A stretch of 64,000 nucleotides of DNA from a virus. The notes under the pieces are model-generated. The model was not told the origin of the DNA. It made no database searches and saw only the letters and a list, made by a program, of their open reading frames with translations. The number at the start of each line of letters is the position of its first letter. The first letter of the stretch is position 1. Where the stretch lies: the IMG/VR virus record IMGVR_UViG_3300009164_000039; one strand, 5' to 3'. Position numbers and translations under genes: made by a program. Positions 21,200 through 59,848 of the stretch are shown piece by piece.

Positions 21200-21205
21200 C
21201 ATAGT

Positions 21206-21238: not shown

Positions 21239-21242
21239 CTGT

Positions 21243-23221: not shown

Positions 23222-23531
23222 ATCCTCAACATGGCAACCACCGGTACCTGAATATCGGGTGTACTATGACAAGTCTGGAACCATAACAACCAAAACAACA
23301 GCACCATTGATAGGTGACTATATTGTGGTGTCTAGAGAAATGTATGACAGCATTGTGATGCACACACAGTGGCATGTGATAAATGGACAAGTTGAAATAA
23401 GACCGGTTGTGGAAATCCCACGTCATATGTTACAATACACAGCTGAAGGCCCGTACCGATCACTGCCAGGAAATGCTATATTTTTGGTAGATGACGATTA
23501 TGCTGGCTCCACTGATAATTGGACAATATGA
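23184..23531 (+). CDS. Hypothetical protein
   Basis: ORF overlaps both neighbours in the operon; start could be GTG 23178 or ATG 23184. Confidence 0.6.
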   Translation: MNKDYPNLITAFESSTWQPPVPEYRVYYDKSGTITTKTTAPLIGDYIVVSREMYDSIVMHTQWHVINGQVEIRPVVEIPRHMLQYTAEGPYRSLPGNAIFLVDDDYAGSTDNWTI

Positions 23532-24418
23532 AAACTGTAGACATTGCAGACCTAGATGTAATTTTTCTAACCTACGACGAACCTCGCAGAGAAGAGTCAT
23601 GGGCCAAAATCAAAAACATGGTACCTTGGGCCAAGCGTGTGGATGGCATAAAAGGCAGTGATGCCGCACACAAAGCCGCAGGTGCGGCCAGCGATACAGA
23701 TCGCTTTATACTAATTGACGGCGACAATATTCCTGACCCAGAGTTCTTTAACAAACAAATCACACTGGATCCACATCATGAAAGATGTGTGTTGCGTTGG
23801 AGAGCAAGAAACGCCATCAACGGACTCATGTACGGCAATGGTGGACTCAGCTCGTGGACCAAAAGTTTTGTAGAAAGCATGCGCACACACGAAGCCACTG
23901 ATGGTCGTAATGAAACACTGGTGGAGTTTTGCTTTGAACCTGACTACTGGGCCATGCATGACTGCTACTCAACCACGTATCCTAATGCCAGTCCATTTCA
24001 GGCCTGGCGAGCAGGCTTCCGTGAAGGTGTTAAAATGTGTCTGGATCGCGGAGCAAGACCCAACTTGGACGAGTTTGAAAAACGTGCCCACAATCGTAAT
24101 CTTGATCATTTGACCATTTGGCAAAGTGTGGGTGCTGATGCAGAGAATGGCTTCTGGGCCATATACGGTGCTAGACGTGGCACACAAATGACCATGCTTA
24201 CAGACTGGGATTACACCCAGGTACAAGACTTTGATGAACTGGCAAAACTTTGGACTGTGTACCAAAATGACGGCCCTGACGAATGCACTGAAGTAGGCAA
24301 CATGCTACGCAAACGCCTGGGACTTAACATTGTGGATCTAGACCCCGAACCCAGTGCATTTTTCAAACATCACTACAAGTCAAATTTTGTCAATAGAGGA
24401 ATAATGAGTCGTGAGTAA
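23528..24418 (+). CDS. Glycosyltransferase-like protein (GT2-like fold)
   Basis: 'DVIFLTYDEP...RVDGIKG...AHKAA...RFILIDGDN' with DxD; ATGA-coupled to the upstream gene. Confidence 0.6.
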   Translation: MKTVDIADLDVIFLTYDEPRREESWAKIKNMVPWAKRVDGIKGSDAAHKAAGAASDTDRFILIDGDNIPDPEFFNKQITLDPHHERCVLRWRARNAINGLMYGNGGLSSWTKSFVESMRTHEATDGRNETLVEFCFEPDYWAMHDCYSTTYPNASPFQAWRAGFREGVKMCLDRGARPNLDEFEKRAHNRNLDHLTIWQSVGADAENGFWAIYGARRGTQMTMLTDWDYTQVQDFDELAKLWTVYQNDGPDECTEVGNMLRKRLGLNIVDLDPEPSAFFKHHYKSNFVNRGIMSRE

Positions 24419-29525: not shown

Positions 29526-30675
29526 AGTTATCCCGTTGGTTAATGTTAGTGCATTGCAAGCCCTGACGCCCGCACCTCTTGGTCGCGCAGAGGTTGACTC
29601 TGACTACATGACACGGTATATACAAACTGGAATGGATTTTAACAAGGATCTTGGACTAGCAGGCAAATATTGTTATCACCCATTTAACACAGTCACGATA
29701 GACCATCGAGGTCGTTGCTATGTATGCACCTGTCAGGCATGGTTACCAATCAGCGTAGGTAACATTTTAGATTTTAATTCGCTGAGTGAAATTGTTCACA
29801 GCTCACGTGCTAGAGAGATACAACGAAGTATCGTAGATGGCAGTTATCGTTACTGTGACAATAAAACTTGCGGGTTATTAATCAGCGACGCAATGGAAAC
29901 TAGAATTGAGCACAAACCAGACACTGTGAATTGGATCAATTTCTGTATCGATGACAGTTGCAACTTACAGTGTCCTAGCTGTCGCACAGATTTAATATTT
30001 CATAAACAAGGTCCAGAATTTGATCTACGTATGAAAATATCACAGCATGTGAGCAAGCTGATCAGCGAACACAATCATTTTTTACGATTTACACTAAGCA
30101 ACGATGGGGATCCATTTGCTAGTCATGTGTACAGAAACCTAATGACAACTATTGCGCCACAACTGGTCAATCAGCTGGAGATTGAAATAGTAACTAACGG
30201 CATATTAATGAAGTCACATTGGCACGAAATTGAAAACATATACCCTAACCTCACACTAATCAAAGTCAGTTTTGATGCTGCCACCGAACAAACATACAAC
30301 AAAACACGATGCGGCGGCAGTTGGAACAAAGTAACTGAAAGCACTAGATTTGTAGCTGATTGGCTGGCTCAACGCAAAGCACAGCATCTCAATGCATATA
30401 CTAGATTGGTAGCTAATTTTGTAGTGCAACAAACAAACTATCATGAGATGATTGACTTTGTAACACTGTGCAATTCGTTGGGTGTTGATCAGATCTTGTT
30501 TCAAAAAGTAACTAACTGGAATACGTGGATTGATGCCAACGGCACAGATCAGTACAGCGCACATGCAGTATGGCAACAGTCGCATCCTGAATATCACAAG
30601 CTGAAAGAAATACTAAAAGATCCTGTGTTTCAACAGCACAATGTTAAACTAACTAACCTAGCGGATCTACTATGA
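29518..30675 (+). CDS. Radical SAM protein with N-terminal twitch domain (5 of 6), divergent
   Basis: 'YCYHPF...GRCYVCTC...GNIL...YCDNKTC', then CNLQCPSC; the GGE motif is replaced by 'NDGDPF'. Confidence 0.85.
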   Translation: MNKVIPLVNVSALQALTPAPLGRAEVDSDYMTRYIQTGMDFNKDLGLAGKYCYHPFNTVTIDHRGRCYVCTCQAWLPISVGNILDFNSLSEIVHSSRAREIQRSIVDGSYRYCDNKTCGLLISDAMETRIEHKPDTVNWINFCIDDSCNLQCPSCRTDLIFHKQGPEFDLRMKISQHVSKLISEHNHFLRFTLSNDGDPFASHVYRNLMTTIAPQLVNQLEIEIVTNGILMKSHWHEIENIYPNLTLIKVSFDAATEQTYNKTRCGGSWNKVTESTRFVADWLAQRKAQHLNAYTRLVANFVVQQTNYHEMIDFVTLCNSLGVDQILFQKVTNWNTWIDANGTDQYSAHAVWQQSHPEYHKLKEILKDPVFQQHNVKLTNLADLL

Positions 30676-31961: not shown

Positions 31962-32719
31962 TATTATTAAGTTCTGGCGATAGCTTTACATATGGCAACG
32001 AGCTCAGTGATGACAACCCTGCACGTGCTAGTAACAACACATGGTCGGCGAACCTAGCAAAACATTTTGGGTTTGAGCACCAGTGTGTGGCCAAAGGCGG
32101 CGCCGGCAACGACTATATTTCTAGATCACTCATAACACAGGCCAATGAACTTCGTAAAAAAAGCAAACAGTTTGCAGTAGCGGTAATGTGGACCTATCCT
32201 GGACGCATTGAATTAAAAGTTCAGTCCGAGTGGCACCAACTAAACGATTATGTATTTTGGGATTCGACTGAAAAACTACAAGCACAGTGGCCCGATAAAG
32301 GTGAAAAATTTTATGCATCAATACTAGACAGAATTCAAAAAGACCGAGAAGCAAATCGATTGGATTTGTTCAGAGACTATATGAAATTTACGGTGTTAAC
32401 TGGTGACTATGCAATAGTAAAATCTTATCAAAGTATATTTGTTACCGCACAATATCTAATGCATCATGAAATTCCTTTCTTTTTTGTAAATGCAGTTGAC
32501 GAGGCAAACATCACTGGAAATTACATACCTCAGGACAGTTTGCCTTACCTGGACAGCATTGACCAGCAAGACTGGATGCCTGTTCCTAGTTTCTATTCCT
32601 GGGCAAAAGAAAATAATTATAAATTTGGGTCAGCACACCCATTGGATCGAGCACACACAGATTACGCTAAACTGATACTAGCTACAGGATTGGTAGAAAC
32701 AAAATGGCAATTAAAGTAG
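31958..32719 (+). CDS. SGNH/GDSL-like hydrolase or acyltransferase
   Basis: Block I 'SGDSFTYG', block II 'AKGGAGN', C-terminal 'HP...H'. Confidence 0.6.
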   Translation: MILLSSGDSFTYGNELSDDNPARASNNTWSANLAKHFGFEHQCVAKGGAGNDYISRSLITQANELRKKSKQFAVAVMWTYPGRIELKVQSEWHQLNDYVFWDSTEKLQAQWPDKGEKFYASILDRIQKDREANRLDLFRDYMKFTVLTGDYAIVKSYQSIFVTAQYLMHHEIPFFFVNAVDEANITGNYIPQDSLPYLDSIDQQDWMPVPSFYSWAKENNYKFGSAHPLDRAHTDYAKLILATGLVETKWQLK

Positions 32720-33798
32720 TATTACGAAACCCATTGGATCAGCAAGATCTAATAGACTATGACATTGTGCCCGATGACACATTGTTGGCACATGACTGGC
32801 AACAGGCACTAAAAGAACTGTTAGTGCAAGGTCGCATGCTGGAAAAGAACTTTTGTTTTCTCGGCTTTCCTGGCACTGCACGTACACTTGATTACATCTG
32901 CAAAGAATTAAACGAATGCGTGTACGATGTCAATGCTATGGATTGGCAGTCAGTTGGACTTGCACCGTATATAATTGAAGAGTGGTTCACACCTGACTCA
33001 GTTAGATTTGGTTTAGAATATCCCTGTGAGCTAACCGATACCAGCCTAGGATTATCAGTCAAACACGAAGTAATGAACAAACTGCACAATCATTTTGAGA
33101 GACTTCAAGGCACTGTATGGTCACCTAGTGAGTATTATACTCAGGCCACTCCAACTGTTAAGTATGCAATTAGACAACTCAACACACTGTGCCATGAAAT
33201 TGAATCTCTGGTGCTGAGCCAACGCAAGGCATATCGTTTGCCAGAATGGGTACGCCCAAGCCAAATTACTACGTTTATCAGCGCACCAAGATACGATCTT
33301 AAAGATCGGCATCGTGAAGGATTTGTTACCAATGGATATGACAGAAAATTTGGACATGTGTACATGCACTGGGCACAAATTGGCAAAACACTGTTTGAAG
33401 TATTTCGTGATGAGCATGCACCAGAACTAACTGATACTGTATGTGAAGCAATCACTCAATTGAAATACTATTCCGGTGAATTTGACATTGAATGGGGACG
33501 AGATGTAGTACGTACAGGCGACTTTCCGTGGCACGTGGAAGAACAGGATCGTTTTGAAAAATGGTTGATACAAAACAACATAGATCCAAAAAATCCTGCA
33601 ATGAGCTCAGGATATTTGCCATTGGGACAGGTAGAATTACAACAGAGTTTTGGCACAACCGATATTGGCACCATTTGGCAAATACTCAGCACACACCTGG
33701 ATATATACAGTATCGAGGTAGACGGAGTTGTTCAAACATATGATTACTGTTGGAGCGATACTGACTACAAGCAGTCGCAGATCAGGAGACTACTATGA
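32704..33798 (+). CDS. Hypothetical protein (364 aa)
   Basis: Long ORF coupled to both neighbours; no motif recognised. Confidence 0.75.
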   Translation: MAIKVVLRNPLDQQDLIDYDIVPDDTLLAHDWQQALKELLVQGRMLEKNFCFLGFPGTARTLDYICKELNECVYDVNAMDWQSVGLAPYIIEEWFTPDSVRFGLEYPCELTDTSLGLSVKHEVMNKLHNHFERLQGTVWSPSEYYTQATPTVKYAIRQLNTLCHEIESLVLSQRKAYRLPEWVRPSQITTFISAPRYDLKDRHREGFVTNGYDRKFGHVYMHWAQIGKTLFEVFRDEHAPELTDTVCEAITQLKYYSGEFDIEWGRDVVRTGDFPWHVEEQDRFEKWLIQNNIDPKNPAMSSGYLPLGQVELQQSFGTTDIGTIWQILSTHLDIYSIEVDGVVQTYDYCWSDTDYKQSQIRRLL

Positions 33799-33894: not shown

Positions 33895-34587
33895 ATGAAA
33901 AAAATACTTGTTCTAGCCTGTAGTAGCGGATTGGGCGTCGAATGCGAAGATGTAATCAATCATTGCTGGCCCAACATACTAGGAGACCTTACTAACACCG
34001 CAGTAACCAATGCCTCTGAAGCTGGCGGTAGCAATGACATGATGTATCGCAAAGCACTGTCAATGACTGCAACTGAATCGTATGACCTGGTATTGATTGC
34101 ATGGACAAACATTGATCGCATGGAAGTGTATTTTAACGAAGAGATTGTGTCTAATAGATTACCTGACGTACTAATCAGTGAAAAATTTCCTCGTGTGCAA
34201 GGACCTGGGCCAGTCAGTGTGTCTCATCATTGGAGTGACTTGCCTTGGATTGAAAAATACTATGGCATGCACTATAATGAACGTTACTTACTAGAGCGAT
34301 GGTTGCACCAAGCAATCACACTTCAAGAATATTTCAAAGCCAAAAAACAGCCATTTGCTTACATATCAAACTTTGGAAACACTCAGTATCTAAAAAATCA
34401 TACAGACATTCCTATGTTAAAGATGCTGGATGTAAAATCTTGGATTGGTAACTGGCCTGGGTCAACTTTACGCGACTGGGGTGCACCAATTGGCGTACAC
34501 AAATATGGTCATTTTACGTTAGACGCACATAAATTTATTGCAGAAAAAATACATGAGCATATTAGGAATCGCGGCTGGCTTTCATGA
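33895..34587 (+). CDS. Divergent SGNH-like protein
   Basis: 'LVLACSSGLG', 'NASEAGGSN', 'VLIAWTNIDRME', C-terminal 'GHF...AH'; same layout as 31958..32719. Confidence 0.5.
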   Translation: MKKILVLACSSGLGVECEDVINHCWPNILGDLTNTAVTNASEAGGSNDMMYRKALSMTATESYDLVLIAWTNIDRMEVYFNEEIVSNRLPDVLISEKFPRVQGPGPVSVSHHWSDLPWIEKYYGMHYNERYLLERWLHQAITLQEYFKAKKQPFAYISNFGNTQYLKNHTDIPMLKMLDVKSWIGNWPGSTLRDWGAPIGVHKYGHFTLDAHKFIAEKIHEHIRNRGWLS

Positions 34588-36034
34588 TGCCGCACTAGCG
34601 GTAATTGACAAGCATGGGGACATTGTATTTGCTGGACACAGTGAGCGTTACAGCAAAATCAAACACGACAAAAATTTATCGCCAGGCTTGATTGCCGAAG
34701 TATGCAAATTTGATATACATGAAATAGCATATTATGAACGTCCTTGGGCACAACAGTTGCGTAGATTGTACACCGGCGAAGGAGTAGAGTGGAACAAGCT
34801 CACAGTCCGGCAGATATTAAAAAAACAAATTAACGAGTTCAGTGCATTCTCTGGACCAGTAGTAGCATATCCGCATCATCTGAGTCATGCGGCAGCAGGA
34901 TTTCAAACAAGCCCATTTACCCGTGCCACAGTGGTTGTGATAGACGCTGTAGGTGAATGGGACACAATAACCATCTGGGGCGCAGAATACGATCGCAATG
35001 GACACGCACAGTACAAGAAGTTATGGCAACAAGGTTACCCGCATAGTATAGGATTGTTCTACAGTGCAATGACCCAGCGAGTAGGGTTGAAGCCCCTGGA
35101 CGAAGAATACATTTTGATGGGCATGGCAGCGTATGGTGAGCGTGGCTTTGGTGACCTATTAAAAATGGACATGATAGAATCAGAATTTGACATTCGATTC
35201 AAACACAATCTACACACTGGTATAGATAAAAAATATCTAGCCTACATCAGTGACTTTGATATAGCTGCCGGCGCACAAGATCTTGTGGAAACACTCATAC
35301 TCAATGTTATGCTACGTGCTAAGAAGTTTGGGTGGAGTAGCAATCTGGTGTACGGTGGAGGTGTTGCGCTCAACTGTGCCGCCAATAGATTTTTAGGAGA
35401 ATATTTTGATAACATTTGGATTATGCCTTGTCCTGGTGATGCTGGTTCTAGTCTGGGGGCCGCCGCTGTTAGTTTCCGTGGTTGTATTAATTGGACTGAT
35501 GCTTGTCTTGGGCATGATATACCTGGCGACTATCCTGTTAATGATGCCGTGGCTGCTCTTTTGCGTGGTGATATTATTGGTGTGGCGAGCGGTCGAGCCG
35601 AGTTCGGCCCGAGAGCGTTGGGAAACAGAAGTCTCCTCGCAGACCCAAGAGGAACAGAAATCAAAGACAAAGTAAATGAAATCAAACGTAGACAAAAGTT
35701 TAGACCCTTTGCACCCGTTGTATTGGAAGAGATGGCTGATCAGTATTTTACTATGCCTCGCGGGTGGGATCGCAGTCGGTACATGCAGTCAGTCGCTGAC
35801 TGTAGGCATCCTGAGTTATTTCCTGCTATTGTTCACGCTGACGGAACTAGTCGTGTTCAGACCGTACCGAAAGATGGAAGCGGAATTAGAGAGCTCCTTG
35901 AAAAATGGTTCGTGTTAACTGATTGTCCTATGTTGCTAAACACCAGCCTAAACATACGTGGCGAACCTATGGTCAATGATCGTGCTGACGCAGACCGCTT
36001 TGAAAAGTTATATGGCATAAAGGTCTACAGTTAA
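34553..36034 (+). CDS. O-carbamoyltransferase, NodU/CmcH/TobZ family
   Basis: 'GFHDAA', 'HHLSHAA', 'VIDAVGE', 'EYILMGMAAYG', 'GRAEFGPRALGNRSLLADP', 'FRPFAP', 'HADGTSRVQTV', 'LLNTSLN'. Confidence 0.95.
   Translation: MSILGIAAGFHDAALAVIDKHGDIVFAGHSERYSKIKHDKNLSPGLIAEVCKFDIHEIAYYERPWAQQLRRLYTGEGVEWNKLTVRQILKKQINEFSAFSGPVVAYPHHLSHAAAGFQTSPFTRATVVVIDAVGEWDTITIWGAEYDRNGHAQYKKLWQQGYPHSIGLFYSAMTQRVGLKPLDEEYILMGMAAYGERGFGDLLKMDMIESEFDIRFKHNLHTGIDKKYLAYISDFDIAAGAQDLVETLILNVMLRAKKFGWSSNLVYGGGVALNCAANRFLGEYFDNIWIMPCPGDAGSSLGAAAVSFRGCINWTDACLGHDIPGDYPVNDAVAALLRGDIIGVASGRAEFGPRALGNRSLLADPRGTEIKDKVNEIKRRQKFRPFAPVVLEEMADQYFTMPRGWDRSRYMQSVADCRHPELFPAIVHADGTSRVQTVPKDGSGIRELLEKWFVLTDCPMLLNTSLNIRGEPMVNDRADADRFEKLYGIKVYS
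35406..35675 (+). CDS. Overprinted 89-aa multi-TM protein (+1 frame inside the carbamoyltransferase), holin-like architecture
   Basis: AGGAGA at 35395-35400, 5 nt before TTG 35406. First 60 residues contain no charged amino acid; charged C-terminal tail. Confidence 0.6.
   Translation: MITFGLCLVLVMLVLVWGPPLLVSVVVLIGLMLVLGMIYLATILLMMPWLLFCVVILLVWRAVEPSSARERWETEVSSQTQEEQKSKTK
35676..35918 (+). CDS. Overprinted 80-aa two-TM protein coupled to 35406..35675
   Basis: TAA (35673-35675) is directly followed by ATG (35676). TM-like 'WLISILLCLAGGIAVG' and 'LTVGILSYFLLLFTLTELVVF'. Confidence 0.5.
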   Translation: MKSNVDKSLDPLHPLYWKRWLISILLCLAGGIAVGTCSQSLTVGILSYFLLLFTLTELVVFRPYRKMEAELESSLKNGSC

Positions 36035-38040
36035 TGTATGATGTATTTTATACCGGCACAGCACCTGGCGTGTTTGCACACGAACGCAGTGCCAACAACA
36101 TTGAACACGCACAGCAACTGAGTCGTACACGTTACTTCTGGTGGGTAACTGCACATTGTGACTACACCGACTTTGATTTTTACTTCACACCTGTACCTTG
36201 GCAAGGAGACTTCACGCATGTATGGCCCACACAATGGAAAGAGTTCTTTGGTGCATACCTTGTGCCCACCAACAGTAAACAACTAAACTATCACCACCAC
36301 AGTGAAGTGTTACCTCCGCGGCAGCATCCAGAGCACTATACAAAACTAATCAACTGCGAGTTTGATACTGAGTGGGTTCCGCATCCTTGGGACCCACCTT
36401 ACATCTATGTGTTTGGTAACCAGTGGTACCCAGCAGAGAAAATGCCCACTGTTGAATATCATGCGCCGGGTGCAACTGAGCGCAAGTTCATGCCGTGGCC
36501 ACGTGCGCAACTGGTTCCTGACACTACATTATGGACAGTGCCAGAAGGCATTGATCCCGGCGACGTGGATTTTTCATGGGTGCCCGATCCGGGCTCACCT
36601 CCATATATCTATCAGTTTGCCACACAGCATCAGAAAACAGGTGGCCCACAATATCGTATGCCCGGTGCAACTGAAGTAAAGTATGTGGAACAAGTAAAGG
36701 TACGCACCAGTCGTGTGGCTACAGCCGTTTATGAAATTGATCACAGTGACGGCAACACCGGGTATGTTCCAAACATTACTCGACGTATTCGATTCTTTGA
36801 CAACTACAAGGACACACTGATACGTCTGGCAACCAGTATAGGCGATGAACATGACTTTGTGTGGATATGTAGCAGTGCGTGTGACTACACAAACTTTGAC
36901 TTCACATGGCACCCAGAACAATGGCAAGCTACTATGTTGCATGTGTTCCCAAGCAACGACCAAAAGTTTGGAGACACATTCTTCATGCATGTGCCCACCT
37001 TTAGAGCACGTGCTGAACAGTACGAATTGTTAGATTGGTATGACCTAAACTTCTGCACCGACCAGTTAGTGCCACGCAGACCATTTCCATGTGTTGAATA
37101 TTCTGGATCCAGTGTTGTACCAGTTATTCGCGAGCATGAGTTTTTGGCCCCGTATACGTTATTTCAGCATACCTTGTACAGTTCAACACAAGTACATGCT
37201 AGTCCGAGCCTGTGGAGTAAAAAACACCGTGAACTGATTACATTTAGCGCAGGAAACAGCGCCGCACTAGTGCCTAAAGATGTAAAACAACACCTTGAGA
37301 CACAGGTTTATGACTACCCTTGGATCAAGAAAAGTAACGATCGCTTGCCCGAACTGCCACAAGACATTGTGTTTATCAGTTACGATGAATTGAATGCAGA
37401 TCAAAACTATCACAATCTTGTGAGCCGTTTTTCAAATGCCAAACGAGTACACGGTGTTGAAGGAATGGTTGCGGCACTAGAAGCAGCCGCACGTGCTAGC
37501 ACAACTGATTGGTTCTATGCAGTGTTTGCCAAGACACAGGTACATGAGTCATTTGTGTTTGACTTTGCACCAGATCGTTTCCAACAACCCAAGCATTACA
37601 TATTCTATGCTATCAATGCAGTGAATGATCTAGTGTATGGAGAAATGGGCATCATCTTATACAACCGTCAAATGGTACTGGACGGTCCTGCTGAACTGGG
37701 CATTGACTATACCATGAGCTTTCCAAATGAAACCATACCGCAAATCAGTGCTTACGGTAACTTCAACACAGATCCATATCAGACCTGGCGTACTGCATTC
37801 CGTGAAACTGCAAAACTATGTTTGTTCCAGTATCAGACACCCAGCGTGGAAACAGAACACAGACTTGGTACATGGTTGTCACACGCACGTGGTGCGCATG
37901 CTGAGTGGGCATTGCGTGGTGCGCAGGACGGAAAACAATTCTTTGAAGAAGTAGGTGCAGACGAAGCGCAACTAAAAGCAATGTTTAGTTGGAAATGGTT
38001 ACGTGAACGCTACTGTAGTCTTTACGAAAAAACTTCTTGA
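36034..38040 (+). CDS. Modular glycosyltransferase-like protein (668 aa)
   Basis: C-terminal domain from about 37363 is paralogous to 23528..24418 ('DIVFISYDE...KRVHGVEG...AA.AS.TDWF', 'TWRTAFRE..K'); repeated N-terminal modules. Confidence 0.6.
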   Translation: MYDVFYTGTAPGVFAHERSANNIEHAQQLSRTRYFWWVTAHCDYTDFDFYFTPVPWQGDFTHVWPTQWKEFFGAYLVPTNSKQLNYHHHSEVLPPRQHPEHYTKLINCEFDTEWVPHPWDPPYIYVFGNQWYPAEKMPTVEYHAPGATERKFMPWPRAQLVPDTTLWTVPEGIDPGDVDFSWVPDPGSPPYIYQFATQHQKTGGPQYRMPGATEVKYVEQVKVRTSRVATAVYEIDHSDGNTGYVPNITRRIRFFDNYKDTLIRLATSIGDEHDFVWICSSACDYTNFDFTWHPEQWQATMLHVFPSNDQKFGDTFFMHVPTFRARAEQYELLDWYDLNFCTDQLVPRRPFPCVEYSGSSVVPVIREHEFLAPYTLFQHTLYSSTQVHASPSLWSKKHRELITFSAGNSAALVPKDVKQHLETQVYDYPWIKKSNDRLPELPQDIVFISYDELNADQNYHNLVSRFSNAKRVHGVEGMVAALEAAARASTTDWFYAVFAKTQVHESFVFDFAPDRFQQPKHYIFYAINAVNDLVYGEMGIILYNRQMVLDGPAELGIDYTMSFPNETIPQISAYGNFNTDPYQTWRTAFRETAKLCLFQYQTPSVETEHRLGTWLSHARGAHAEWALRGAQDGKQFFEEVGADEAQLKAMFSWKWLRERYCSLYEKTS

Positions 38041-39100
38041 TATAGTCGCACACAGAAATCACATCACGGTGGCTCATTTGTGCATGTACAGGCAAACTCA
38101 AGCAACTGGCAGCTAGGTTTTCACTCACTGGTAAACTGAGATTGGTTAGGTATACCGGCTGTTGATGCATGGCACGTGGAAACTGTATGCCTGTTTCTAC
38201 GCCATGGTATGCCAGATACTGTTTCAATTCATCACGTTCATTGGTAGTGATCACAAACTGATTGTACACATGACTGCTCACAGGGTTAGTTGCTGGCAAA
38301 TCAATTTCTGTCACAAATGCCAGCTCTCCGCGATATACACTGGCATGCTCTTGCCTACGTAGATTCCAATCATGCAAGTACGGTATCTTGGCATGTAGCA
38401 CAGCCGCTTGCAAGCCATCCAAGCGTTCATTCCAACCACGCACAAGATGCTTGTACTTTTCCAGCCTTCCGTGATCACGTAGCATCCTGACCAAGTGACA
38501 CATCTCCTCACTGCCTGTTACTGCACCAGCATCGCCCATGGCACTGAGATTCTTGCCTGGATAAAAACTAAAGCAAGTGGCATACACTAGGTCACCAACA
38601 AAACGATCAATATATTGGCACCCTGCACTTTGTGCGGCATCTTCAATGAGTGGGATATCCCCGGCGATAGTCTTGAGTGCATCAATGTCTAGTGTTTGTC
38701 CGTACAAGTCAACAAACACAATAGCCTTGGTACTGGTATTGAGTAACCCAGCCACGGCGGCTAGGTCTAGAGTGTAGTAACGTGGATCAATATCAACAAA
38801 CACAGGCGTAGCACCCAATTGGCTGACCACTTCAGCAGTGCTGATAAAACTCATTGTTGGCACAATCACTTCATCACCGGGCCCTATGCCCAAGCTATCC
38901 AATGCCAGCATCAGCGCACTGGTACCACTGCTGACTCCAGCGCAGGCTCTGCTTTGTGTGTGCTCTGCCCAGTCCTGTTCAAATGCCAGTACCTCTGGAC
39001 CATTGATGTAACTGCTGTTCTTGATGCAACGGGCCATGGCAGTGTCCACGTCCTTGCGACACTCTAGGTACTCTTTGTGTAGGTCTGCGTACTTGATCAT
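37985..39100 (-). CDS. DegT/DnrJ/EryC1/StrS PLP sugar aminotransferase, DesV/FdtB-like (3-aminotransferase group)
   Basis: 'SSGTSAL', 'GDEVIVP', 'EDAAQ', 'FSFYPGKNLSAMGDAGAV', 'KYKH...GWNERLDGLQAAVL'. ATG 39100 is ATGA-coupled to the upstream gene. Confidence 0.85.
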   Translation of the reverse strand: MIKYADLHKEYLECRKDVDTAMARCIKNSSYINGPEVLAFEQDWAEHTQSRACAGVSSGTSALMLALDSLGIGPGDEVIVPTMSFISTAEVVSQLGATPVFVDIDPRYYTLDLAAVAGLLNTSTKAIVFVDLYGQTLDIDALKTIAGDIPLIEDAAQSAGCQYIDRFVGDLVYATCFSFYPGKNLSAMGDAGAVTGSEEMCHLVRMLRDHGRLEKYKHLVRGWNERLDGLQAAVLHAKIPYLHDWNLRRQEHASVYRGELAFVTEIDLPATNPVSSHVYNQFVITTNERDELKQYLAYHGVETGIQFPRAMHQQPVYLTNLSLPVSENLAASCLSLPVHAQMSHRDVISVCDYIKKFFRKDYSSVHVTISN

Positions 39101-40470
39101 GCTCGTGACACCACTGGGCCTTGACTCCAAGGAATGCCAAAATCCAAATCGTCTCTTGCTTGATTTATCAGTATGCTAACCACATGATCAAATGCATCCA
39201 AAAAGCCCACATCCATTGGCATGGGCTTGACTGTCTTGTGTTGATCGACCCAGTGTTGCGTCACACGGGTAACACTGCTGTCTTCTACGTTGCCAATGAT
39301 GTAACGGTCAGCACCTGGGCGATCCAGGAACCCTGTTTCGTGATACATGTACACATCACCTTTTACATCCACTGCCACGCTCACTTGCGGAAAGCCGTGT
39401 GGCACCAGTTCCTGCCAGTCTATCATACGCAGTTGCCCAACATCACGACCGTAACGCAAGGGTTCTAGCGCATAGCCAAAATCAAAATGTGTGGGCCACT
39501 GGTGTTGAAACTCGCTTACTTGTGCAAACATACCCATGAGCTTTTCACGTTCTTCTGCACCCAGCACACGTATGTTCTGACTGAAGTCTTCACGTAGTGT
39601 AACAAAGTCCACGGGCCTGTTGGCAGTGCGATTGATATGTTCTATTACCTTTAGCAGTTCTAATACGTCTTGACTGTGGCCTGGCAGGATGATGTAGTTG
39701 ACGCCGACCTTGACTCCGGGTGCGGCATTGATATATCCAATGATGTTTTTGATCACGTGATCAAAACTCTGACGATTCTTGGTAACTGCAAATGCTTTGT
39801 TTGCCGTGGTACCGTATAAACTAAAACGCACAGCTTCTAGATCTCGCATGCCTGGGTGCTTGTGCAGATACGCATCAGTCATCATGTTGCCATTGGTATA
39901 CAACTGCATCTTGAATCCACGGCCAGCACCGTAACTGATAATCTCTCCAAGGTACGGATTGGTTAACGGCTCTAGGCCGCCGCTGATGCGAAAGCGGTCC
40001 TGCCACATGGGATCGGTTTTGGGGTCTTGGTCAATTATTTGAAAGAACAAGTCACGGCCGATTTGTGCATAGTCTGTGTCATACTTGGCCACAGGGTTAC
40101 GTCCACAAAAGCCACAATAGAACATGCAACTGAGTCCTGTATAAAGACCCACACGATTAGGATATGCCCAGTGATGATTGAATGCTGCCTGTAGTGTGCC
40201 AGATGCCAGCAACGGTGCAATGGTATTGGTCCAGTACTTGGTGCCTACACCACTGTGCAGTATCTGTTGTTGTGCCCACGCACTGGCACGTATTTCTGCA
40301 ATGGCTGATAGGTGACTTTGTTTGTCAATTGCAAAACGTTCAGCAATGGATCGTTGAGTAACAAACGGATCGTTACTCATTGCATCTACAATTATTTTTG
40401 CATGATAGCTCAGTTCAGTTGGCGCAACTAAATCTGATACTGCGCTGTGGTGTTGATAACCTAAGCGCAT
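39097..40470 (-). CDS. desII: Radical SAM dTDP-4-amino-4,6-dideoxy-D-glucose ammonia-lyase homologue (DesII)
   Basis: 'YW.NTI.PL', 'VGLY.G.SCMFYCGFC', 'SGGLEPLTNP', 'LYTN', 'SLYG', 'YIILPG', 'DFVTLREDFS', 'DFGYAL', 'PQV.V.VD..GDVY.Y.E.GF...GA.RYI.G', 'D.FD.VV' match Streptomyces DesII motifs in order over the whole length. Confidence 0.85.
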   Translation of the reverse strand: MRLGYQHHSAVSDLVAPTELSYHAKIIVDAMSNDPFVTQRSIAERFAIDKQSHLSAIAEIRASAWAQQQILHSGVGTKYWTNTIAPLLASGTLQAAFNHHWAYPNRVGLYTGLSCMFYCGFCGRNPVAKYDTDYAQIGRDLFFQIIDQDPKTDPMWQDRFRISGGLEPLTNPYLGEIISYGAGRGFKMQLYTNGNMMTDAYLHKHPGMRDLEAVRFSLYGTTANKAFAVTKNRQSFDHVIKNIIGYINAAPGVKVGVNYIILPGHSQDVLELLKVIEHINRTANRPVDFVTLREDFSQNIRVLGAEEREKLMGMFAQVSEFQHQWPTHFDFGYALEPLRYGRDVGQLRMIDWQELVPHGFPQVSVAVDVKGDVYMYHETGFLDRPGADRYIIGNVEDSSVTRVTQHWVDQHKTVKPMPMDVGFLDAFDHVVSILINQARDDLDFGIPWSQGPVVSRA

Positions 40471-40473
40471 GAC

Positions 40474-41433
40474 TTATCCTTGATGGTAAGGAAAGTTTTT
40501 AAGCCAGTTGTAGTACAGTTGAAATCCTTCTTCAATGTCTACCTTGGGATCAAACCCAAAGTCTTGTCTTGCGGCATTGATGTTCAGCGCACCACGGCTA
40601 GGGAAGTCTGCATCTTTTTCACGCACTTCAATTGTGCCACGGCCAACAATCTTGCATGCCAGTTGTGCGGCCTCGTACAAGGTCTTGCTGTGGCTCTTGG
40701 TAATGTTGTAGATCCGGTTGTTGGATTCTTTGCTGACAGTGGCAGCAACAATACCGTCAGCGGCATCTCCCACATAGGTAAAATCCAGGGTTTCATTCAT
40801 GCCGTTGACCTTTAGTGTACCACCGCGCATGGCAGTGAGCACAAACTTGCTGATCACACGGTCCTCCACATCCAGTTCACCGTACACAGCACTGGGTCGA
40901 ATAACAGTGTATACCATGCCGGTCTTGCGAGCATAATCTTTAACCAACCATTCTCCGGCCAGCTTCATGATACCGTACTGTCCTTGTGGCTGACAGAGGT
41001 AGTCTTCTGTGACATCGTTATCAAAGTCTCCGTAGACCATGCTAGAGCTGATGTACACAAATTTGCACACTTGAAAATCTTTTGCACATTCCAACAGGTT
41101 AAGCAAACCTTCACTCATGGTTCTAGAACCCAGTTGTGGATTGACGTTGACTACTTTCTGGCGCGGGAAACTTGCAAGATGAATCACTGTGTCTGGCCGG
41201 TAGGTTTCAAAGATCCAACGCATGCCATCACGGTCACTGATGTCCACAGCATGTATACGAGTTGTGGCAATCTTCTTTAGTCGTTCAGGCATTAGGCTGT
41301 TGAGTTCAGCTTGTGGCACAAGTCCATACGTGGTACGTGTGTCTGTAATAAACACTTCGTGCCCTTGGGCTTCAAGTCGTTGCACCACATTGTGCCCAAT
41401 CAATCCCAATCCGCCAGTTACTAGTATTCTCAT
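40474..41433 (-). CDS. NAD-dependent epimerase/dehydratase (extended SDR)
   Basis: 'TGGLGLIG', 'HLAS', 'SSSMVYG', 'YGIMK' (YxxxK), 'LDFTYVGD'. Confidence 0.9.
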   Translation of the reverse strand: MRILVTGGLGLIGHNVVQRLEAQGHEVFITDTRTTYGLVPQAELNSLMPERLKKIATTRIHAVDISDRDGMRWIFETYRPDTVIHLASFPRQKVVNVNPQLGSRTMSEGLLNLLECAKDFQVCKFVYISSSMVYGDFDNDVTEDYLCQPQGQYGIMKLAGEWLVKDYARKTGMVYTVIRPSAVYGELDVEDRVISKFVLTAMRGGTLKVNGMNETLDFTYVGDAADGIVAATVSKESNNRIYNITKSHSKTLYEAAQLACKIVGRGTIEVREKDADFPSRGALNINAARQDFGFDPKVDIEEGFQLYYNWLKNFPYHQG

Positions 41434-41434
41434 A

Positions 41435-41674
41435 TCACATCCATTTCAACCTATAATAGGTTGCATATTTTTCTTCACGGAACTCGCCTACAATACGCAC
41501 ACGATACCCATAGCTGATAGCATCGGGATCGCAGTAGAATGTGGGTGGCTCTTTGGCATGTTCCATCACAAACTTGCCTTGCTCGGTATCCTGCCATTCG
41601 CCAAGAGGAAATGCCGCATACAAATACGGATCCTCTACATCTCCCATGGTGAACTCATGCAAGAGCATTTTCAT
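41435..41674 (-). CDS. Hypothetical protein
   Basis: 79-aa ORF ATGA-coupled to thyA. Confidence 0.7.
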   Translation of the reverse strand: MKMLLHEFTMGDVEDPYLYAAFPLGEWQDTEQGKFVMEHAKEPPTFYCDPDAISYGYRVRIVGEFREEKYATYYRLKWM

Positions 41675-42585
41675 ACTGCCATTGGAGCTGAAATGGGCTC
41701 GTGATACGTGTAGTCACGCAGTTCAATGTCTGCCATGGTGAACTTGGTGATGTCTTTCACAGCAGGGTTTAACCATAAGGTCGGAAGCGGGTATGGTTCG
41801 CGTTCTAGTTGTGTCTTTACCTGCTCCACGTGATTGAGATATATGTGAGCGTCTCCGAGAACGTGAACGAACTCGCCTACTTCAAAACCGCACACTTGAG
41901 CAATCATATGTGTGAGTAGGGAATAGGACGCTATGTTGAAAGGCACGCCTAAGAACATGTCGCAGGAACGCTGATACATTTGACAACTCAACCGACCTTT
42001 GGAATCGACGTAAAACTGTGACAAGACGTGGCACGGTGGCAAGGCCATAGATTCTAATTCTCCAGGGTTCCAAGCAGATAATATATGTCGTCGTCCGTAC
42101 GGGTCTCTATATAGACCGTCTATTAACAGTTTCAATTGATCAGTTTCAGTTTCGTGTACACCACCGGCCACACTGAAGTAGCTGCCGTAGCTGTCTTTGA
42201 AACTGCCTGCACGTGCATGTCGTGCAGTTTTCCAGTGGCGCCATTGTACCCCATACACACGGCCTAGGTCGCCTGGAAACTGTGCTTTGGGTTTCCAGTA
42301 GTCTGCTGTGGCATTGGCAGACCAGATGGTTGTCTTGCTAGACTCGGCGCTACCATGTAATATCTCTCGCAGCCGCTTCTCGTCCCCTGATCCTTCAATG
42401 AACCACAGCAGTTCTGAAACCACGCTTTTCCAAGCCAGCTTCTTTGTTGTCACAGCAGGAAAGCCGTGTGCTAGATTGTATCGTTGTTGCATGCCAAATA
42501 GGCCAATGGTACCTGTACCGGTGCGATCTTGTCGCTCTTCGCCAGTGTCAAGTATCTGTTGTAGGGCGTTGTGGTAAGTCTTCAT
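41671..42585 (-). CDS. thyA: Thymidylate synthase
   Basis: 'DRTGTGT', 'ELLWFIEGS', 'DLGRVYGVQWR', 'AWNP', 'LPPCH', 'YQRSCDMFLGVPFNIASY', 'GDAHIYLNH'. Confidence 0.98.
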   Translation of the reverse strand: MKTYHNALQQILDTGEERQDRTGTGTIGLFGMQQRYNLAHGFPAVTTKKLAWKSVVSELLWFIEGSGDEKRLREILHGSAESSKTTIWSANATADYWKPKAQFPGDLGRVYGVQWRHWKTARHARAGSFKDSYGSYFSVAGGVHETETDQLKLLIDGLYRDPYGRRHILSAWNPGELESMALPPCHVLSQFYVDSKGRLSCQMYQRSCDMFLGVPFNIASYSLLTHMIAQVCGFEVGEFVHVLGDAHIYLNHVEQVKTQLEREPYPLPTLWLNPAVKDITKFTMADIELRDYTYHEPISAPMAV

Positions 42586-58731: not shown

Positions 58732-58760
58732 ATTATAACACTTCTGCAATAGCATTGCAA
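58732..58760 (-). promoter_or_regulatory. sigma70-type promoter for queE
   Basis: TTGCAA-17 nt-TATAAT with TG extended -10; SD GAGGTG. Confidence 0.7.
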
Positions 58761-59848
58761 ACAGTTTGCATATCATCCTTGCTCATTTCTAACCAGAACG
58801 GAATTGTTAGAGTTTGATCAGCAATGAGTTCTGCATTTACTATGCGTTCTGCGTTTGCTGACCAAAAGCCTGGATGTTTATTTACTAGCGGCTGATAAGG
58901 ACGTTTAGTTTGTATTCCTTTATCTGCTAGATGTTGTTCGACTCGATTTCTAACAGTCGTAGATTCAAATCGCACCACAAACATCTGTCGGATGTAATCT
59001 CTACAGCCAGTTTGGAATCGCATTTGTTCACCAAACGGTGAATCACCAAACCGATATTCTAACAGGTCTTGATATGCATTGAGTTGCATGCGGAATTGTT
59101 GCAGTCTAGCGGGCCAACGATCCAGCATGATATTAGCCACCGCCGCATGCAACTCACTTAGTTTTGCATTGGTTCCGTAGTCTTCTACAACCAACATACG
59201 ATCTGTTGTGGACCGACCTAAGTTTTGGCCAAAGCTGGTCATTGATCGTTGCACACCTTGCAGTTCCTTGGTAGTGACAATGAATCCACCTTCGCCTGCT
59301 GGCAGTGCTTTTGTGGCATGCATACTGAACATGGCAGTACATGTCCCAACATCTGGTTGACTGCCGAACGCTTGAGCACAGTCCATCACAACAGGAATGC
59401 CTGTTTCTTTTGCAAACTCACTCCACTCATCTGCTGGCAGGGTATGTCCAAACGTGGCCACGGGAATGACCATCTTGATTTCACCAGGATACTTGTTCAC
59501 AAGATCTCTGGCACGTGCGGGTGTTAGGATCCAATGATCAAGATCAATGTCACTTACTAACACACGATGTCCACAGCGTCTAACTGCGGTAGCAGTGGCA
59601 ATGTATGTGAGTGCTGGTACCAGGATATAACTGTTAACTGGGAGATAGTGGCTGGCAATGGCAACCTCAAGAGCAGTGGTTCCACTGGATGCAGTGACAA
59701 TTGGCTTGTTAAAGATCTGGGTCAGTCTGCTCTCAAGGATGTTATTGATAGGACCAAAGTTGCTGTAATGCCCAGACTCATTCATCTGATTAATATAAGG
59801 GGCCAACTCATCAGCAGTTGGCAACAGTGGTTTCATCACATTCATCAA
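58733..59848 (-). CDS. DegT-family PLP sugar aminotransferase, DesI/VioA-like (4-aminotransferase group)
   Basis: 'KPLLP..DEL...YSNFGP', 'SSGTTAL', 'DCAQAFG', 'FSMHATK...GEGG', 'GTNAKLSELHAA'. Confidence 0.8.
   Translation of the reverse strand: MMNVMKPLLPTADELAPYINQMNESGHYSNFGPINNILESRLTQIFNKPIVTASSGTTALEVAIASHYLPVNSYILVPALTYIATATAVRRCGHRVLVSDIDLDHWILTPARARDLVNKYPGEIKMVIPVATFGHTLPADEWSEFAKETGIPVVMDCAQAFGSQPDVGTCTAMFSMHATKALPAGEGGFIVTTKELQGVQRSMTSFGQNLGRSTTDRMLVVEDYGTNAKLSELHAAVANIMLDRWPARLQQFRMQLNAYQDLLEYRFGDSPFGEQMRFQTGCRDYIRQMFVVRFESTTVRNRVEQHLADKGIQTKRPYQPLVNKHPGFWSANAERIVNAELIADQTLTIPFWLEMSKDDMQTVCNAIAEVL

What the first reader, a model, noticed from the sequence alone, without database searches (positions are those of the whole stretch)
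37985..41433. Phage-encoded DesII with a coupled DesV-like aminotransferase: a desosamine-type deoxyamino-sugar route
Seen: 39097..40470 carries the DesII motif series end to end (CMFYCGFC, SGGLEPLTNP, REDFS, DFGYAL, PQV.V.VD..GDVY) and is ATGA-coupled to an aminotransferase with FSFYPGKNL and N.RLD.LQAAVL signatures. Established: in Streptomyces, DesI makes dTDP-4-amino-4,6-dideoxyglucose, DesII deaminates it to the 3-keto-4,6-dideoxy sugar, DesV aminates C3 and DesVI dimethylates. DesII is known from macrolide clusters, and I know of no phage example. Inference: the phage makes an NDP-3-amino-3,4,6-trideoxyhexose as donor for its GTs. No DesVI-like methyltransferase or RmlA/RmlB is in the window, so the end product may be unmethylated, acylated or carbamoylated.
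Basis: partly seen in the sequence, partly recalled or inferred. Interest (0 to 1): 0.88.

Follow-up and report, generated by a model that had tools for sequence, protein, structure and literature searches.

The report
Phage DesII-type amino-sugar gene cassette

Summary
On the minus strand, 39097-40470 encodes a full-length DesII-family radical SAM protein. It scores 343.5 bits on TIGR04426, against 29 or less for any other radical SAM family. It matches the solved S. venezuelae DesII at E 4e-69, and every reported cluster, SAM-binding and active-site residue is kept. It is ATGA-coupled to a DegT aminotransferase whose closest named solved relatives act at C3 (DesV, QdtB, WbpE).

- The third gene is a GalE-like SDR, with SSSMVYG where 4,6-dehydratases have TDEVYG, so it is not an RmlB/DesIV-type dehydratase.
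- Eight contigs from seven relatives carry SDR-DegT1-DesII-DegT2. This window lacks DegT1, the aminotransferase in the DesI position.
- That three-gene form recurs in an independent sample, where DesII is under purifying selection (dN/dS 0.05). It is therefore functional.
- Either a 4-amino precursor comes from elsewhere (a distant DegT at 58733-59848, or the host), or the enzyme oxidises a 4-hydroxy sugar.

No GenBank phage, PHROG family or paper holds a phage DesII. The gene is nevertheless common in uncultured large phages, always beside a module of radical SAM genes, a carbamoyltransferase and a protein with a GT-A-like domain. The scan noted this same stretch once before, and no other DNA. 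I rate it a new variant of a known kind, of moderately high interest.

The parts
39097..40470 (-). DesII-family radical SAM enzyme (P0002, 457 aa)
   Evidence: TIGR04426 343.5 bits, E 1.8e-102, below the curated cut-off of 450. PDB DesII 8hzv E 4.3e-69 over the full length. Kept residues: C115/C119/C122, GGLE, R-x-S-x-Y, D-F, E378 (=E408) and D425 (=D456), set against PMC11434129. It is 36.5-38.5% identical to three PGAP-named Streptomyces desII genes. dN/dS is 0.05 against L023.
37985..39100 (-). DegT/DnrJ/EryC1 PLP aminotransferase of the C3 (DesV/QdtB/WbpE) type, 'DegT2'; start ATG at 39100 overlaps the DesII stop (ATGA)
   Evidence: PF01041 E 2.3e-95. PDB hits: 7b0d 3.4e-80, DesV 2oga 6.2e-77, QdtB 1.6e-67, WbpE 8.6e-67, DesI 5.8e-26. 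The Schiff-base Lys in FSFYPGKNL is kept. ATGA overlap read.
40474..41433 (-). Extended SDR, GalE-like (P0003, 319 aa); not an RmlB/DesIV-type 4,6-dehydratase
   Evidence: PF01370 E 4e-45. TIGR01181 gives 118.5 bits against a cut-off of 365. The best PDB hit is UDP-glucose 4-epimerase 4zrm. It has GxxGxxG, SSSMVYG and YGIMK, with Ser-Met where dehydratases have Asp-Glu; this is invariant in 8 phage orthologues.
41435..41674 (-). 79-aa ORF between ThyA and the SDR, tightly packed (TGAtATG); function unknown
   Evidence: ORF list and sequence. No Pfam hit. Relatives have 69-111-aa ORFs in the same position; homology was not tested.
36034..38040 (+). 668-aa protein, convergent with the cassette. 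It has N-terminal tandem repeats and a C-terminal domain (about residues 441-579) with the nucleotide-diphospho-sugar-transferase (GT-A-like) fold
   Evidence: Model of residues 250-668: pLDDT 92.6. Foldseek finds GT-A enzymes (WrtF 1.4e-5, SunS, pp-GalNAc-T). VIA gives Z 8-9.3, tied with IspD/MobA. A homologue lies beside the cassette in most contigs examined and inside the operon in L020.
34538..36034 (+). NodU/CmcH-type carbamoyltransferase
   Evidence: PF16861 and PF02543; phrog_1601. It is linked to the cassette in L007, L008, L019 and L020, and lies directly upstream of the SDR in L020.
23519..24418 (+). 299-aa paralogue of the GT-A-like domain of the 668-aa protein
   Evidence: blastp: 29% identity over 214-217 aa, E about 1e-14.
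58733..59848 (-). Second DegT aminotransferase of the window ('DegT3'); a possible but unproven supplier of the 4-amino precursor
   Evidence: PF01041 E 2.3e-55. The DesI model TIGR04427 ties for best NCBIfam hit at 119.8 bits, against a cut-off of 650. Only 7 close clusters exist; the next relatives are about 40% identical, and those with names are Burkholderiales. In L021 it again sits between the HIT gene and a following gene, after PRTase, CTP_transf_like and PTPS genes.

Best explanation
The three genes SDR, DesII-like and DegT2 form a tightly coupled phage operon that tailors a nucleotide-activated sugar.

Proposed steps (inferred from homology):
1. The DesII-family radical SAM enzyme uses its [4Fe-4S] cluster and SAM to abstract the C3 hydrogen of an NDP-hexose. 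This leaves a 3-keto sugar.
2. The DesV/QdtB-type PLP aminotransferase converts that sugar into an NDP-3-amino sugar.
3. The GalE-like SDR prepares the precursor by epimerisation or oxidoreduction. It is not a 4,6-dehydratase (sequence result).
4. The product is passed to the convergent late module, which holds proteins with a GT-A-like domain, a carbamoyltransferase and six radical SAM paralogues. I think it ends on a virion or cell-surface glycan, but that target is a guess.

Whether C4 is also deoxygenated is open. Unlike most relatives examined, this phage lacks the aminotransferase between the SDR and DesII. Two routes remain:
- A 4-amino precursor comes from DegT3 or the host, and the enzyme deaminates it as DesII does (about 0.35).
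- The enzyme acts on a 4-hydroxy sugar as a C3 dehydrogenase (about 0.3).

Shown here: family membership, gene coupling, synteny and purifying selection. Inferred: substrate, regiochemistry, product and target.
For: - DesII membership by HMM, by the solved structure and by residues. No other radical SAM family scores above 29 bits.
- DegT2 is closest to named C3 aminotransferases and keeps the catalytic Lys.
- ATGA overlap and a 3-nt gap couple the genes.
- The cassette is conserved in eleven further contigs of related phages. Eight of them, from seven relatives, show SDR-DegT1-DesII-DegT2. Three more (L019, L020, L023) add variants.
- The DegT1-less junction recurs in the independent sample L023, where DesII has dN/dS 0.05 and dS 0.61.
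- The other one-aminotransferase form, L019, also keeps a C3-type enzyme.
- The GT-A-like gene and the carbamoyltransferase are embedded in the same operon in L020.
- The GT-A-like fold is seen.
- S. venezuelae DesII turns a 4-amino substrate into the 3-keto-4-deoxy sugar and a 4-hydroxy substrate into the 3-keto sugar (PMC11434129).
Against: - P0002 is below the NCBIfam equivalog cut-off (343.5 against 450) and only 36-38% identical to named DesII. Substrate and chemistry could therefore differ.
- No nucleotidyltransferase, 4,6-dehydratase or DesI-clade enzyme is in the cassette.
- The role of the SDR is unexplained.
- Aminotransferase regiochemistry rests on similarity only.
- The glycosyltransferase assignment is at fold level, ties with nucleotidyltransferases, and the domain lacks a DxD motif.
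- No acceptor is known.
- The cassette lies in an apparently early, nucleotide-metabolism gene block next to ThyA and DHFR.
Confidence: 0.6

Rival explanations
1. This is the first reader's exact route, the full desosamine-type logic. A C4 aminotransferase outside the cassette (DegT3 at 58733-59848, or a host enzyme) makes NDP-4-amino-4,6-dideoxyglucose from host NDP-4-keto-6-deoxyglucose. The DesII-like enzyme deaminates it to the 3-keto-4,6-dideoxy sugar. DegT2 then gives NDP-3-amino-3,4,6-trideoxyhexose.
For: - This is the native chemistry of the family, and E378 and D425 are kept.
- The four-gene relatives fit DesI-DesII-DesV gene order.
- DegT3 is a rare, lineage-restricted gene.
- The DesI model is DegT3's joint best NCBIfam hit, whereas it ranks 4th to 7th for DegT2-type proteins.
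Against: - DegT3 scores 119.8 bits against a cut-off of 650 and is only about 27% identical to Streptomyces DesI, like the other DegTs.
- It sits in a separate module that recurs in L021, with PRTase, CTP_transf_like, PTPS and HIT genes.
- No 4,6-dehydratase is encoded; the SDR lacks Asp-Glu.
- The second one-aminotransferase lineage (L019) shows no such extra gene in its 21-kb contig.
Confidence: 0.35
2. The cassette is self-sufficient and runs the enzyme in dehydrogenase mode. Without a 4-amino group on the substrate, the DesII-like enzyme oxidises C3-OH of an NDP-hexose or NDP-6-deoxyhexose to the 3-keto sugar. DegT2 then makes an NDP-3-amino-3-deoxy (or 3,6-dideoxy) sugar that keeps its 4-hydroxyl.
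For: - S. venezuelae DesII converts TDP-quinovose to the 3-keto sugar, and the outcome is set by the substrate (PMC11434129).
- Two independent lineages lost one aminotransferase, and both kept the C3-type one together with DesII and the SDR.
- The three-gene form is under strong purifying selection.
- No further enzyme is needed.
Against: - To my knowledge no natural pathway uses a DesII-type enzyme as a dehydrogenase.
- SAM-stoichiometric oxidation is costly compared with NAD-dependent C3 dehydrogenases.
- The SDR's role stays unexplained.
- Relatives with DegT1 are the rule.
Confidence: 0.3
3. This is chalcose-type logic. The single remaining aminotransferase works at C4 as the DesI equivalent. 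The DesII-like enzyme makes the 3-keto-4-deoxy sugar, and the SDR reduces C3. The product is a neutral 4-deoxy or 4,6-dideoxy sugar.
For: - The Streptomyces plasmid clusters in L011 and L012 pair DesI and DesII with an SDR and a Gfo/Idh/MocA oxidoreductase; L011 also holds a methyltransferase. No second DegT lies within the flanks fetched.
- The thaumarchaeal cluster has a similar composition with one DegT.
- It would explain why the aminotransferase kept with DesII is indispensable.
Against: - DegT2 and the L019 enzyme are firmly closest to C3 aminotransferases. DesV, QdtB and WbpE score 214-262 bits against 95-150 for DesI, ArnB and Per.
- The phage SDR is unrelated to the Streptomyces cluster SDR.
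- It leaves the SDR or DegT1 redundant in the four-gene form.
Confidence: 0.1
4. The enzymes do not act on a glycan precursor at all. They might act on a nucleotide or DNA-linked substrate, given the ThyA/DHFR neighbourhood. Alternatively the cassette is a decaying remnant after loss of DegT1.
For: - The cassette always follows thymidylate synthase (ThyA or ThyX) in relatives.
- The score is below the equivalog threshold.
- DegT1 is missing here.
Against: - dN/dS of 0.05 across dS 0.61 argues against decay.
- All three proteins belong to nucleotide-sugar enzyme families.
- The cassette is linked to GT-A-like and carbamoyltransferase genes, even within one operon.
- ThyA scores as an ordinary thymidylate synthase (359 bits).
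Confidence: 0.08

Closest known systems
DesI/DesII/DesV steps of TDP-desosamine biosynthesis, Streptomyces venezuelae (DesII structure 8HZV/8HZY, PMC11434129; DesV 2OGA)
   Same: - The radical SAM enzyme has the same three-part layout.
- It has the same cluster and SAM motifs and keeps the E408 and D456 equivalents.
- It is directly coupled to a DesV-like PLP aminotransferase.
- Relatives have aminotransferases on both sides of DesII, as in DesI then DesII then DesV.
   Different: - Identity to named DesII is 36-38%, and the score is below the TIGR04426 cut-off.
- There is no DesI-clade aminotransferase, and in this window no upstream aminotransferase at all.
- The SDR is GalE-like, not the DesIV 4,6-dehydratase.
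- There is no DesIII, DesVI, or DesVII/VIII.
- The host is a large phage, not an actinomycete macrolide cluster.
DesI + DesII without DesV in macrolide clusters on Streptomyces linear plasmids (L011, L012; by my knowledge chalcose-type deoxysugar routes)
   Same: One aminotransferase plus DesII plus an SDR-type oxidoreductase lie in a single locus.
   Different: There the aminotransferase is a true DesI, named by PGAP. It precedes DesII and sits with PKS, P450 and macrolide glycosyltransferase genes. Here the aminotransferase is C3-type.
3-amino-sugar routes using QdtB/FdtB or WbpE-type aminotransferases
   Same: DegT2 is closest to these C3 enzymes. The end product is probably a 3-amino sugar.
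   Different: By textbook knowledge, those routes make the 3-keto sugar with a cupin 3,4-ketoisomerase or an NAD-dependent Gfo/Idh/MocA dehydrogenase. Here the only candidate is a radical SAM enzyme.
DesII-like genes in marine Thaumarchaeota glycan clusters (L010)
   Same: It is the same family (44% identity) and is set among sugar-modifying genes.
   Different: It is cellular and sits with GT4 glycosyltransferases, an FkbM methyltransferase and a Gfo/Idh/MocA enzyme. Its DegT leans toward the C4 type, with ArnB and Per ranking high.

Membership tests
DesII (TIGR04426, dTDP-4-amino-4,6-dideoxy-D-glucose ammonia-lyase) | CX3CX2C motif binding the radical SAM [4Fe-4S] cluster | tested here: met
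   C115, C119 and C122 align with DesII C141, C145 and C148 (PMC11434129).
DesII (TIGR04426, dTDP-4-amino-4,6-dideoxy-D-glucose ammonia-lyase) | SAM-binding motifs: GGE (G187-E190), ribose motif (R238/S240/Y242) and beta-6 motif (D323/Y324) | tested here: met
   SGGLEP, R-F-S-L-Y and RED-F align to the DesII motifs. The only change is Tyr to Phe at 324.
DesII (TIGR04426, dTDP-4-amino-4,6-dideoxy-D-glucose ammonia-lyase) | Active-site acids E408 and D456 (the D456A mutant is inactive) | tested here: met
   E378 and D425 align with them. Both are invariant in 12 diverse homologues.
DesII (TIGR04426, dTDP-4-amino-4,6-dideoxy-D-glucose ammonia-lyase) | Full-length three-domain layout: N-terminal helical domain, radical SAM core, C-terminal domain | tested here: met
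   The alignment covers residues 12-445 against 36-476 of DesII and 37-459 of 468 model positions. No structure model of P0002 was made.
DesII (TIGR04426, dTDP-4-amino-4,6-dideoxy-D-glucose ammonia-lyase) | Score above the curated equivalog cut-off | tested here: not met
   343.5 bits against a cut-off of 450.
DesII (TIGR04426, dTDP-4-amino-4,6-dideoxy-D-glucose ammonia-lyase) | Adjacent DesI-type C4 aminotransferase supplying the 4-amino substrate | tested here: not met
   No gene lies between the SDR and DesII. DegT2 scores 155 bits on TIGR04427 against a cut-off of 650. Relatives have a DegT there, but it is not DesI-clade either.
DesII (TIGR04426, dTDP-4-amino-4,6-dideoxy-D-glucose ammonia-lyase) | Deamination of TDP-4-amino-4,6-dideoxy-D-glucose | not testable with these tools
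   This needs an anaerobic enzyme assay.
DesV/QdtB/WbpE-type C3 sugar aminotransferase (DegT/DnrJ/EryC1) | PF01041 fold with the Schiff-base lysine | tested here: met
   PF01041 E 2.3e-95. The Lys in FSFYPGKNL aligns with the Lys of all compared DegTs.
DesV/QdtB/WbpE-type C3 sugar aminotransferase (DegT/DnrJ/EryC1) | Closer to C3 than to C4 aminotransferases | tested here: met
   DesV 262.6, QdtB 231.6 and WbpE 229.2 bits, against Per 149.2, ArnB 115.7-140.4, DesI 94.9 and 2fn6 80.5.
DesV/QdtB/WbpE-type C3 sugar aminotransferase (DegT/DnrJ/EryC1) | Amination at C3 of a 3-keto NDP-sugar | not testable with these tools
   This needs an enzyme assay.
RmlB/DesIV-type NDP-hexose 4,6-dehydratase | Asp-Glu acid/base pair after the catalytic Thr (TDEVYG) | tested here: not met
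   The motif is SSSMVYG in the window and in 8 phage orthologues. TIGR01181 gives 118.5 bits against a cut-off of 365.
GalE-like NDP-sugar 4-epimerase (extended SDR) | GxxGxxG, a Ser-Tyr-Lys triad, and SSS-x-VYG | tested here: met
   GGLGLIG, SSSMVYG and YGIMK are present. The best solved relatives are epimerases: 4zrm, the SSSSVYG-type 5u4q, and 6zl6.
GalE-like NDP-sugar 4-epimerase (extended SDR) | Score above the GalE equivalog cut-off | tested here: not met
   TIGR01179 gives 97.3 bits against a cut-off of 262.3, over residues 2-184 only.
GT-A glycosyltransferase (for the 668-aa neighbour) | GT-A fold | tested here: inconclusive
   Foldseek gives E 1.4e-5 and probability about 1 to WrtF, SunS and pp-GalNAc-T, but TM is only 0.23-0.36. 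VIA gives Z 8-9.3 over model residues 192-330, tied with IspD/MobA nucleotidyltransferases.
GT-A glycosyltransferase (for the 668-aa neighbour) | DxD metal-binding motif | tested here: inconclusive
   By eye, a nearly invariant AVFAK stands where I would expect the DxD. No structural superposition was inspected residue by residue.

The most novel reading that the evidence does not exclude
In this phage lineage, and independently in the L019 lineage, loss of the upstream aminotransferase turned a DesI/DesII/DesV-type 4-deoxygenating route into a two-step route. The DesII-family enzyme now serves physiologically as a radical SAM C3 dehydrogenase, feeding a C3 aminotransferase. This would be the first natural use of an activity known only as an in vitro side reaction of DesII. 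It would give phages a modular way to vary the sugar they display by gaining or losing one gene.
Probability: 0.3. Interest if true: 0.8.

Novelty: new variant of a known kind. Interest (0 to 1): 0.65.

Why it matters
DesII is a mechanistic model enzyme of radical SAM chemistry, so far studied only in actinomycete macrolide pathways. This result shows the family is common in a lineage of large uncultured phages. There it sits in natural cassette variants with two or one aminotransferases, all under selection.

That provides a ready-made comparative system for two questions:
- What decides deamination versus dehydrogenation in this enzyme.
- What rare amino sugar these phages make, and on what target.

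The cassette is also the best-annotated entry point into a much larger unexplained module: six more radical SAM paralogues, a carbamoyltransferase, repeat-bearing proteins with a GT-A-like domain, and a 364-aa protein family with more than 4000 homologues and no clear match to a solved fold. That module lies next to the tail-fibre genes and may modify the virion surface.

Tried and rejected
- blastn of the cassette and megablast of 11500-31000 against GenBank phages gave no match. tblastn of P0002 against the same phages gave no match, and there is no PHROG family for it.
- No whole genome is held for the window.
It says nothing about the family's cellular range.
- Literature searches for DesII or desosamine with phage or virus returned only irrelevant papers.
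- The T4 late-promoter motif TATAAATA occurs once, against 1.7 expected. Sigma-70 and terminator scans over 36-48 kb were not above shuffles. The only strong site is TTGACG-17-TATAAT at 46243-46215, minus strand.
- Pfam at E up to 5 gave nothing for the 266-, 290-, 299-, 253-, 364- and 668-aa ORFs. The ESM Atlas gave only weak glycosyltransferase leads.
- For the 364-aa protein model, Foldseek found nothing. VIA gave only Z 7-9 matches to helical bundles and cyclophilin-like barrels.
- DegT3, the QueE-like gene and the PTPS gene were sought in the IMG/VR records G001 and G003 and are absent. Those records are only 17-33% complete. The metagenome records behind L006-L009 cannot be searched.
- I first read the 459-aa gene of L020 as a second DesII copy. 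tblastn showed it is a homologue of the 668-aa protein. That reading was rejected, and the notebook carries the correction.
- The idea that the SDR is the missing 4,6-dehydratase was rejected on its catalytic motif.

Full report
**1. What is there**

The interval holds three minus-strand genes:
- an extended SDR, 40474-41433, 319 aa (P0003);
- a radical SAM protein, 39097-40470, 457 aa (P0002);
- a DegT-family aminotransferase, 37985-39100 (P0001).

The DesII stop and the aminotransferase ATG overlap as ATGA at 39100-39097. The real start is therefore the ATG at 39100, not the TTG at 39130. The SDR stop is 3 nt from the DesII ATG. Upstream, a 79-aa ORF and ThyA/DHFR are equally tightly packed.

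The window is phage DNA:
- It holds a 3726-aa virion structural protein, tail fibres and a phage ATPase.
- The ATPase's closest cultured relative is Pseudomonas jumbo phage PA5oct, at 49% identity.
- Earlier notes of this scan call the genome T4-like with many tRNAs. I did not check that.

**2. The radical SAM protein is a DesII-family member**

- TIGR04426 gives 343.5 bits (E 1.8e-102) over nearly the whole model. The next radical SAM family gives 29 bits.
- The solved S. venezuelae DesII (8hzv, 8hzy) matches at E 4e-69 over residues 12-445.
- I set the alignment against the structure paper (PMC11434129). P0002 keeps the cluster cysteines (C115/C119/C122), the GGLE motif, the R-x-S-x-Y ribose motif, the beta-6 Asp (followed by Phe in place of Tyr), and the two active-site acids. 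These are E378 (=E408) and D425 (=D456, whose alanine mutant is inactive). Both acids are invariant in 12 diverse homologues.
- Three PGAP-named desII genes on Streptomyces plasmids are 36.5-38.5% identical.

The score is below the curated equivalog cut-off of 450. I therefore file it as a family member whose exact substrate is unproven.

**3. The partners**

P0001:
- It is a DegT aminotransferase (PF01041, E 2e-95) with the Schiff-base lysine.
- Its best hit, 7b0d (273 bits), carries only an automatic name. Its best named solved relatives are C3 aminotransferases: DesV 263 bits, QdtB 232, WbpE 229.
- C4 enzymes score far lower: Per 149, ArnB 116-140, DesI 95.
- 'DesV-like' is therefore a fair description.

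The SDR:
- It is not the expected 4,6-dehydratase. Where RmlB/DesIV have TDEVYG, it has SSSMVYG.
- That motif, together with YxxxK, is invariant in eight phage orthologues.
- Its best solved relatives are 4-epimerases.

No RmlA-type nucleotidyltransferase, 4,6-dehydratase or methyltransferase was found among the window ORFs scanned.

**4. Relatives**

P0002 has 694 homologues in metagenome proteins. In a tree of 127, a well-supported clade of 59 clusters contains every protein whose phage context I saw. Sister groups include another phage clade, a thaumarchaeal clade and, as outgroup, Streptomyces DesII.

| Cassette form | Contigs |
|---|---|
| SDR-DegT1-DesII-DegT2, downstream of ThyA or ThyX | L001/L002, L006, L007, L008, L009 and the contigs of P0009 and P0068 (14-342 kb) |
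| CarbT-SDR-DegT1-[668-aa-like]-DesII-DegT2, one operon | L020 |
| SDR-DegT-DesII, no second aminotransferase | L019 |
| SDR-DesII-DegT2, no DegT1 | this window and L023 |

In L019 the single DegT is 42% identical to the window's DegT2, but only 27-30% identical to DegT1 proteins. It is again closest to C3 enzymes.

The window has no DegT1. This is not an assembly oddity. L023 comes from an independent sample and is 88.6% identical in nucleotides. It shows the same SDR-to-DesII junction and the same ATGA into DegT2. DesII differs between the two with dN/dS 0.05 at dS 0.61.

One aminotransferase has therefore been lost at least twice. The C3-type enzyme was kept both times, and the three-gene form is maintained by selection.

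**5. What this means for the pathway**

In this phage nothing in the cassette can make it.

The other DegT of the window (58733-59848) was proposed as DesI-like in another reading.
- It is a rare, lineage-restricted gene.
- The DesI model is its joint best NCBIfam hit, but at 120 bits against a cut-off of 650.
- It is no closer to Streptomyces DesI than the other DegTs are.
- It lies in a separate module of PRTase, CTP_transf_like, PTPS and HIT genes, followed by a QueE-like gene, and most of that order recurs in L021.

The alternative is that the enzyme acts on a 4-hydroxy sugar. S. venezuelae DesII oxidises TDP-quinovose to the 3-keto sugar, and the outcome is set by the substrate. That product is exactly what a C3 aminotransferase needs, so the three genes would suffice.

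I cannot separate these two routes by computation, and I give them about 0.35 and 0.3. A chalcose-type route, in which the remaining aminotransferase acts at C4 and the SDR reduces C3, has precedent in gene content in the Streptomyces plasmid clusters and the thaumarchaeal cluster. It conflicts with the C3-type similarity of DegT2 (about 0.1).

**6. Where the sugar goes**

- The cassette is convergent with a late-looking block that follows the tail fibres. The block holds six radical SAM/SPASM paralogues, several ORFs without families, a carbamoyltransferase and a 668-aa protein.
- Homologues of the 668-aa protein, the 364-aa protein and the radical SAM genes lie beside the cassette in most relatives examined.
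- In L020 the 668-aa-like gene and the carbamoyltransferase lie inside the cassette operon. That is good evidence of a shared function.
- A confident model of residues 250-668 (pLDDT 92.6) has a domain that Foldseek matches to GT-A glycosyltransferases. VIA gives Z 8-9.3, tied with IspD/MobA nucleotidyltransferases.
- The 299-aa ORF at 23519-24418 shares this domain.
- A glycosyltransferase role is therefore plausible but not shown, and the acceptor is unknown.

**7. Novelty**

- No GenBank phage (50,697 records) encodes a detectable DesII homologue, and no PHROG family matches it.
- No paper in the library links DesII or desosamine biosynthesis to a phage.
- The surrounding module has only weak matches in cultured phages: Ralstonia RsoM2USA and Vibrio K566/K567.
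- The enzyme family and the pathway logic are known. The context, the partner set and the natural one- and two-aminotransferase variants are new.

I rate it a new variant of a known kind, with interest 0.65.

Noticed in passing
window 24411-31961 (+), with 39097-40470 (-) and 57842-58714 (-): Six tandem, overlapping radical SAM paralogues of 385-460 aa. Three of them have a SPASM-like Cys-rich domain at the N-terminus, before the radical SAM core, which is an unusual order. With DesII and a QueE-like gene this makes eight radical-SAM-type genes in 64 kb.
   Followed up: partly
window 32704-33798 (+): A 364-aa protein with no Pfam or PHROG family but 4167 homologues, the closest listed at about 60-67% identity. 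That is far more than DesII has. A confident model (pLDDT 87) has no Foldseek match in the PDB. VIA suggests only a cyclophilin-like barrel with a helical insert, at Z 7-9.
   Followed up: partly
window 36034-38040 (+): The N-terminal part of the 668-aa protein consists of repeats of about 110 aa with a W-x-P-x-P-x-(D/S)-P-P-Y-I-Y motif. The family has 1207 representatives, up to 2248 aa long, with as many as 22 matched stretches in front of one conserved C-terminal module.
   Followed up: partly
window 57842-63027 (-): A module of PRTase, CTP_transf_like, two PTPS (QueD-like) genes, HIT, the DegT aminotransferase and a QueE-like radical SAM gene. The order from PRTase to DegT recurs in L021, with one PTPS. 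A DegT inside a 7-deazapurine-like gene set is, to my knowledge, unusual, and its product is unknown.
   Followed up: partly
L007 6809-7474 and L008 6996-7667, versus window 41671-42585: At the same syntenic position upstream of the cassette, some relatives carry ThyX (PF02511) instead of ThyA plus DHFR. This is a non-homologous replacement of thymidylate synthase within one phage lineage.
   Followed up: no
L003 1326-2819 and 4528-5787; L020 8001-9203: One IMG/VR contig carries two divergent DesII-like ORFs flanking a DegT on the other strand. A Tara Oceans contig (by its record name) carries a 400-aa form that aligns only with about the C-terminal 80% of P0002.
   Followed up: partly
L010 (Marine Group I thaumarchaeote) 7887-9302 and flanks: A DesII-like gene lies in an archaeal glycan cluster with two GT4 glycosyltransferases, a Gfo/Idh/MocA enzyme, one DegT, an FkbM methyltransferase, an SDR and a polysaccharide deacetylase. 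The family is therefore not confined to macrolide clusters.
   Followed up: partly
window 9-11189 (+): A single ORF of 3726 aa that runs off the window start. It matches PHROG 10938 (virion structural protein) and, at residues 2514-2652, a head-closure Hc2 family.
   Followed up: no
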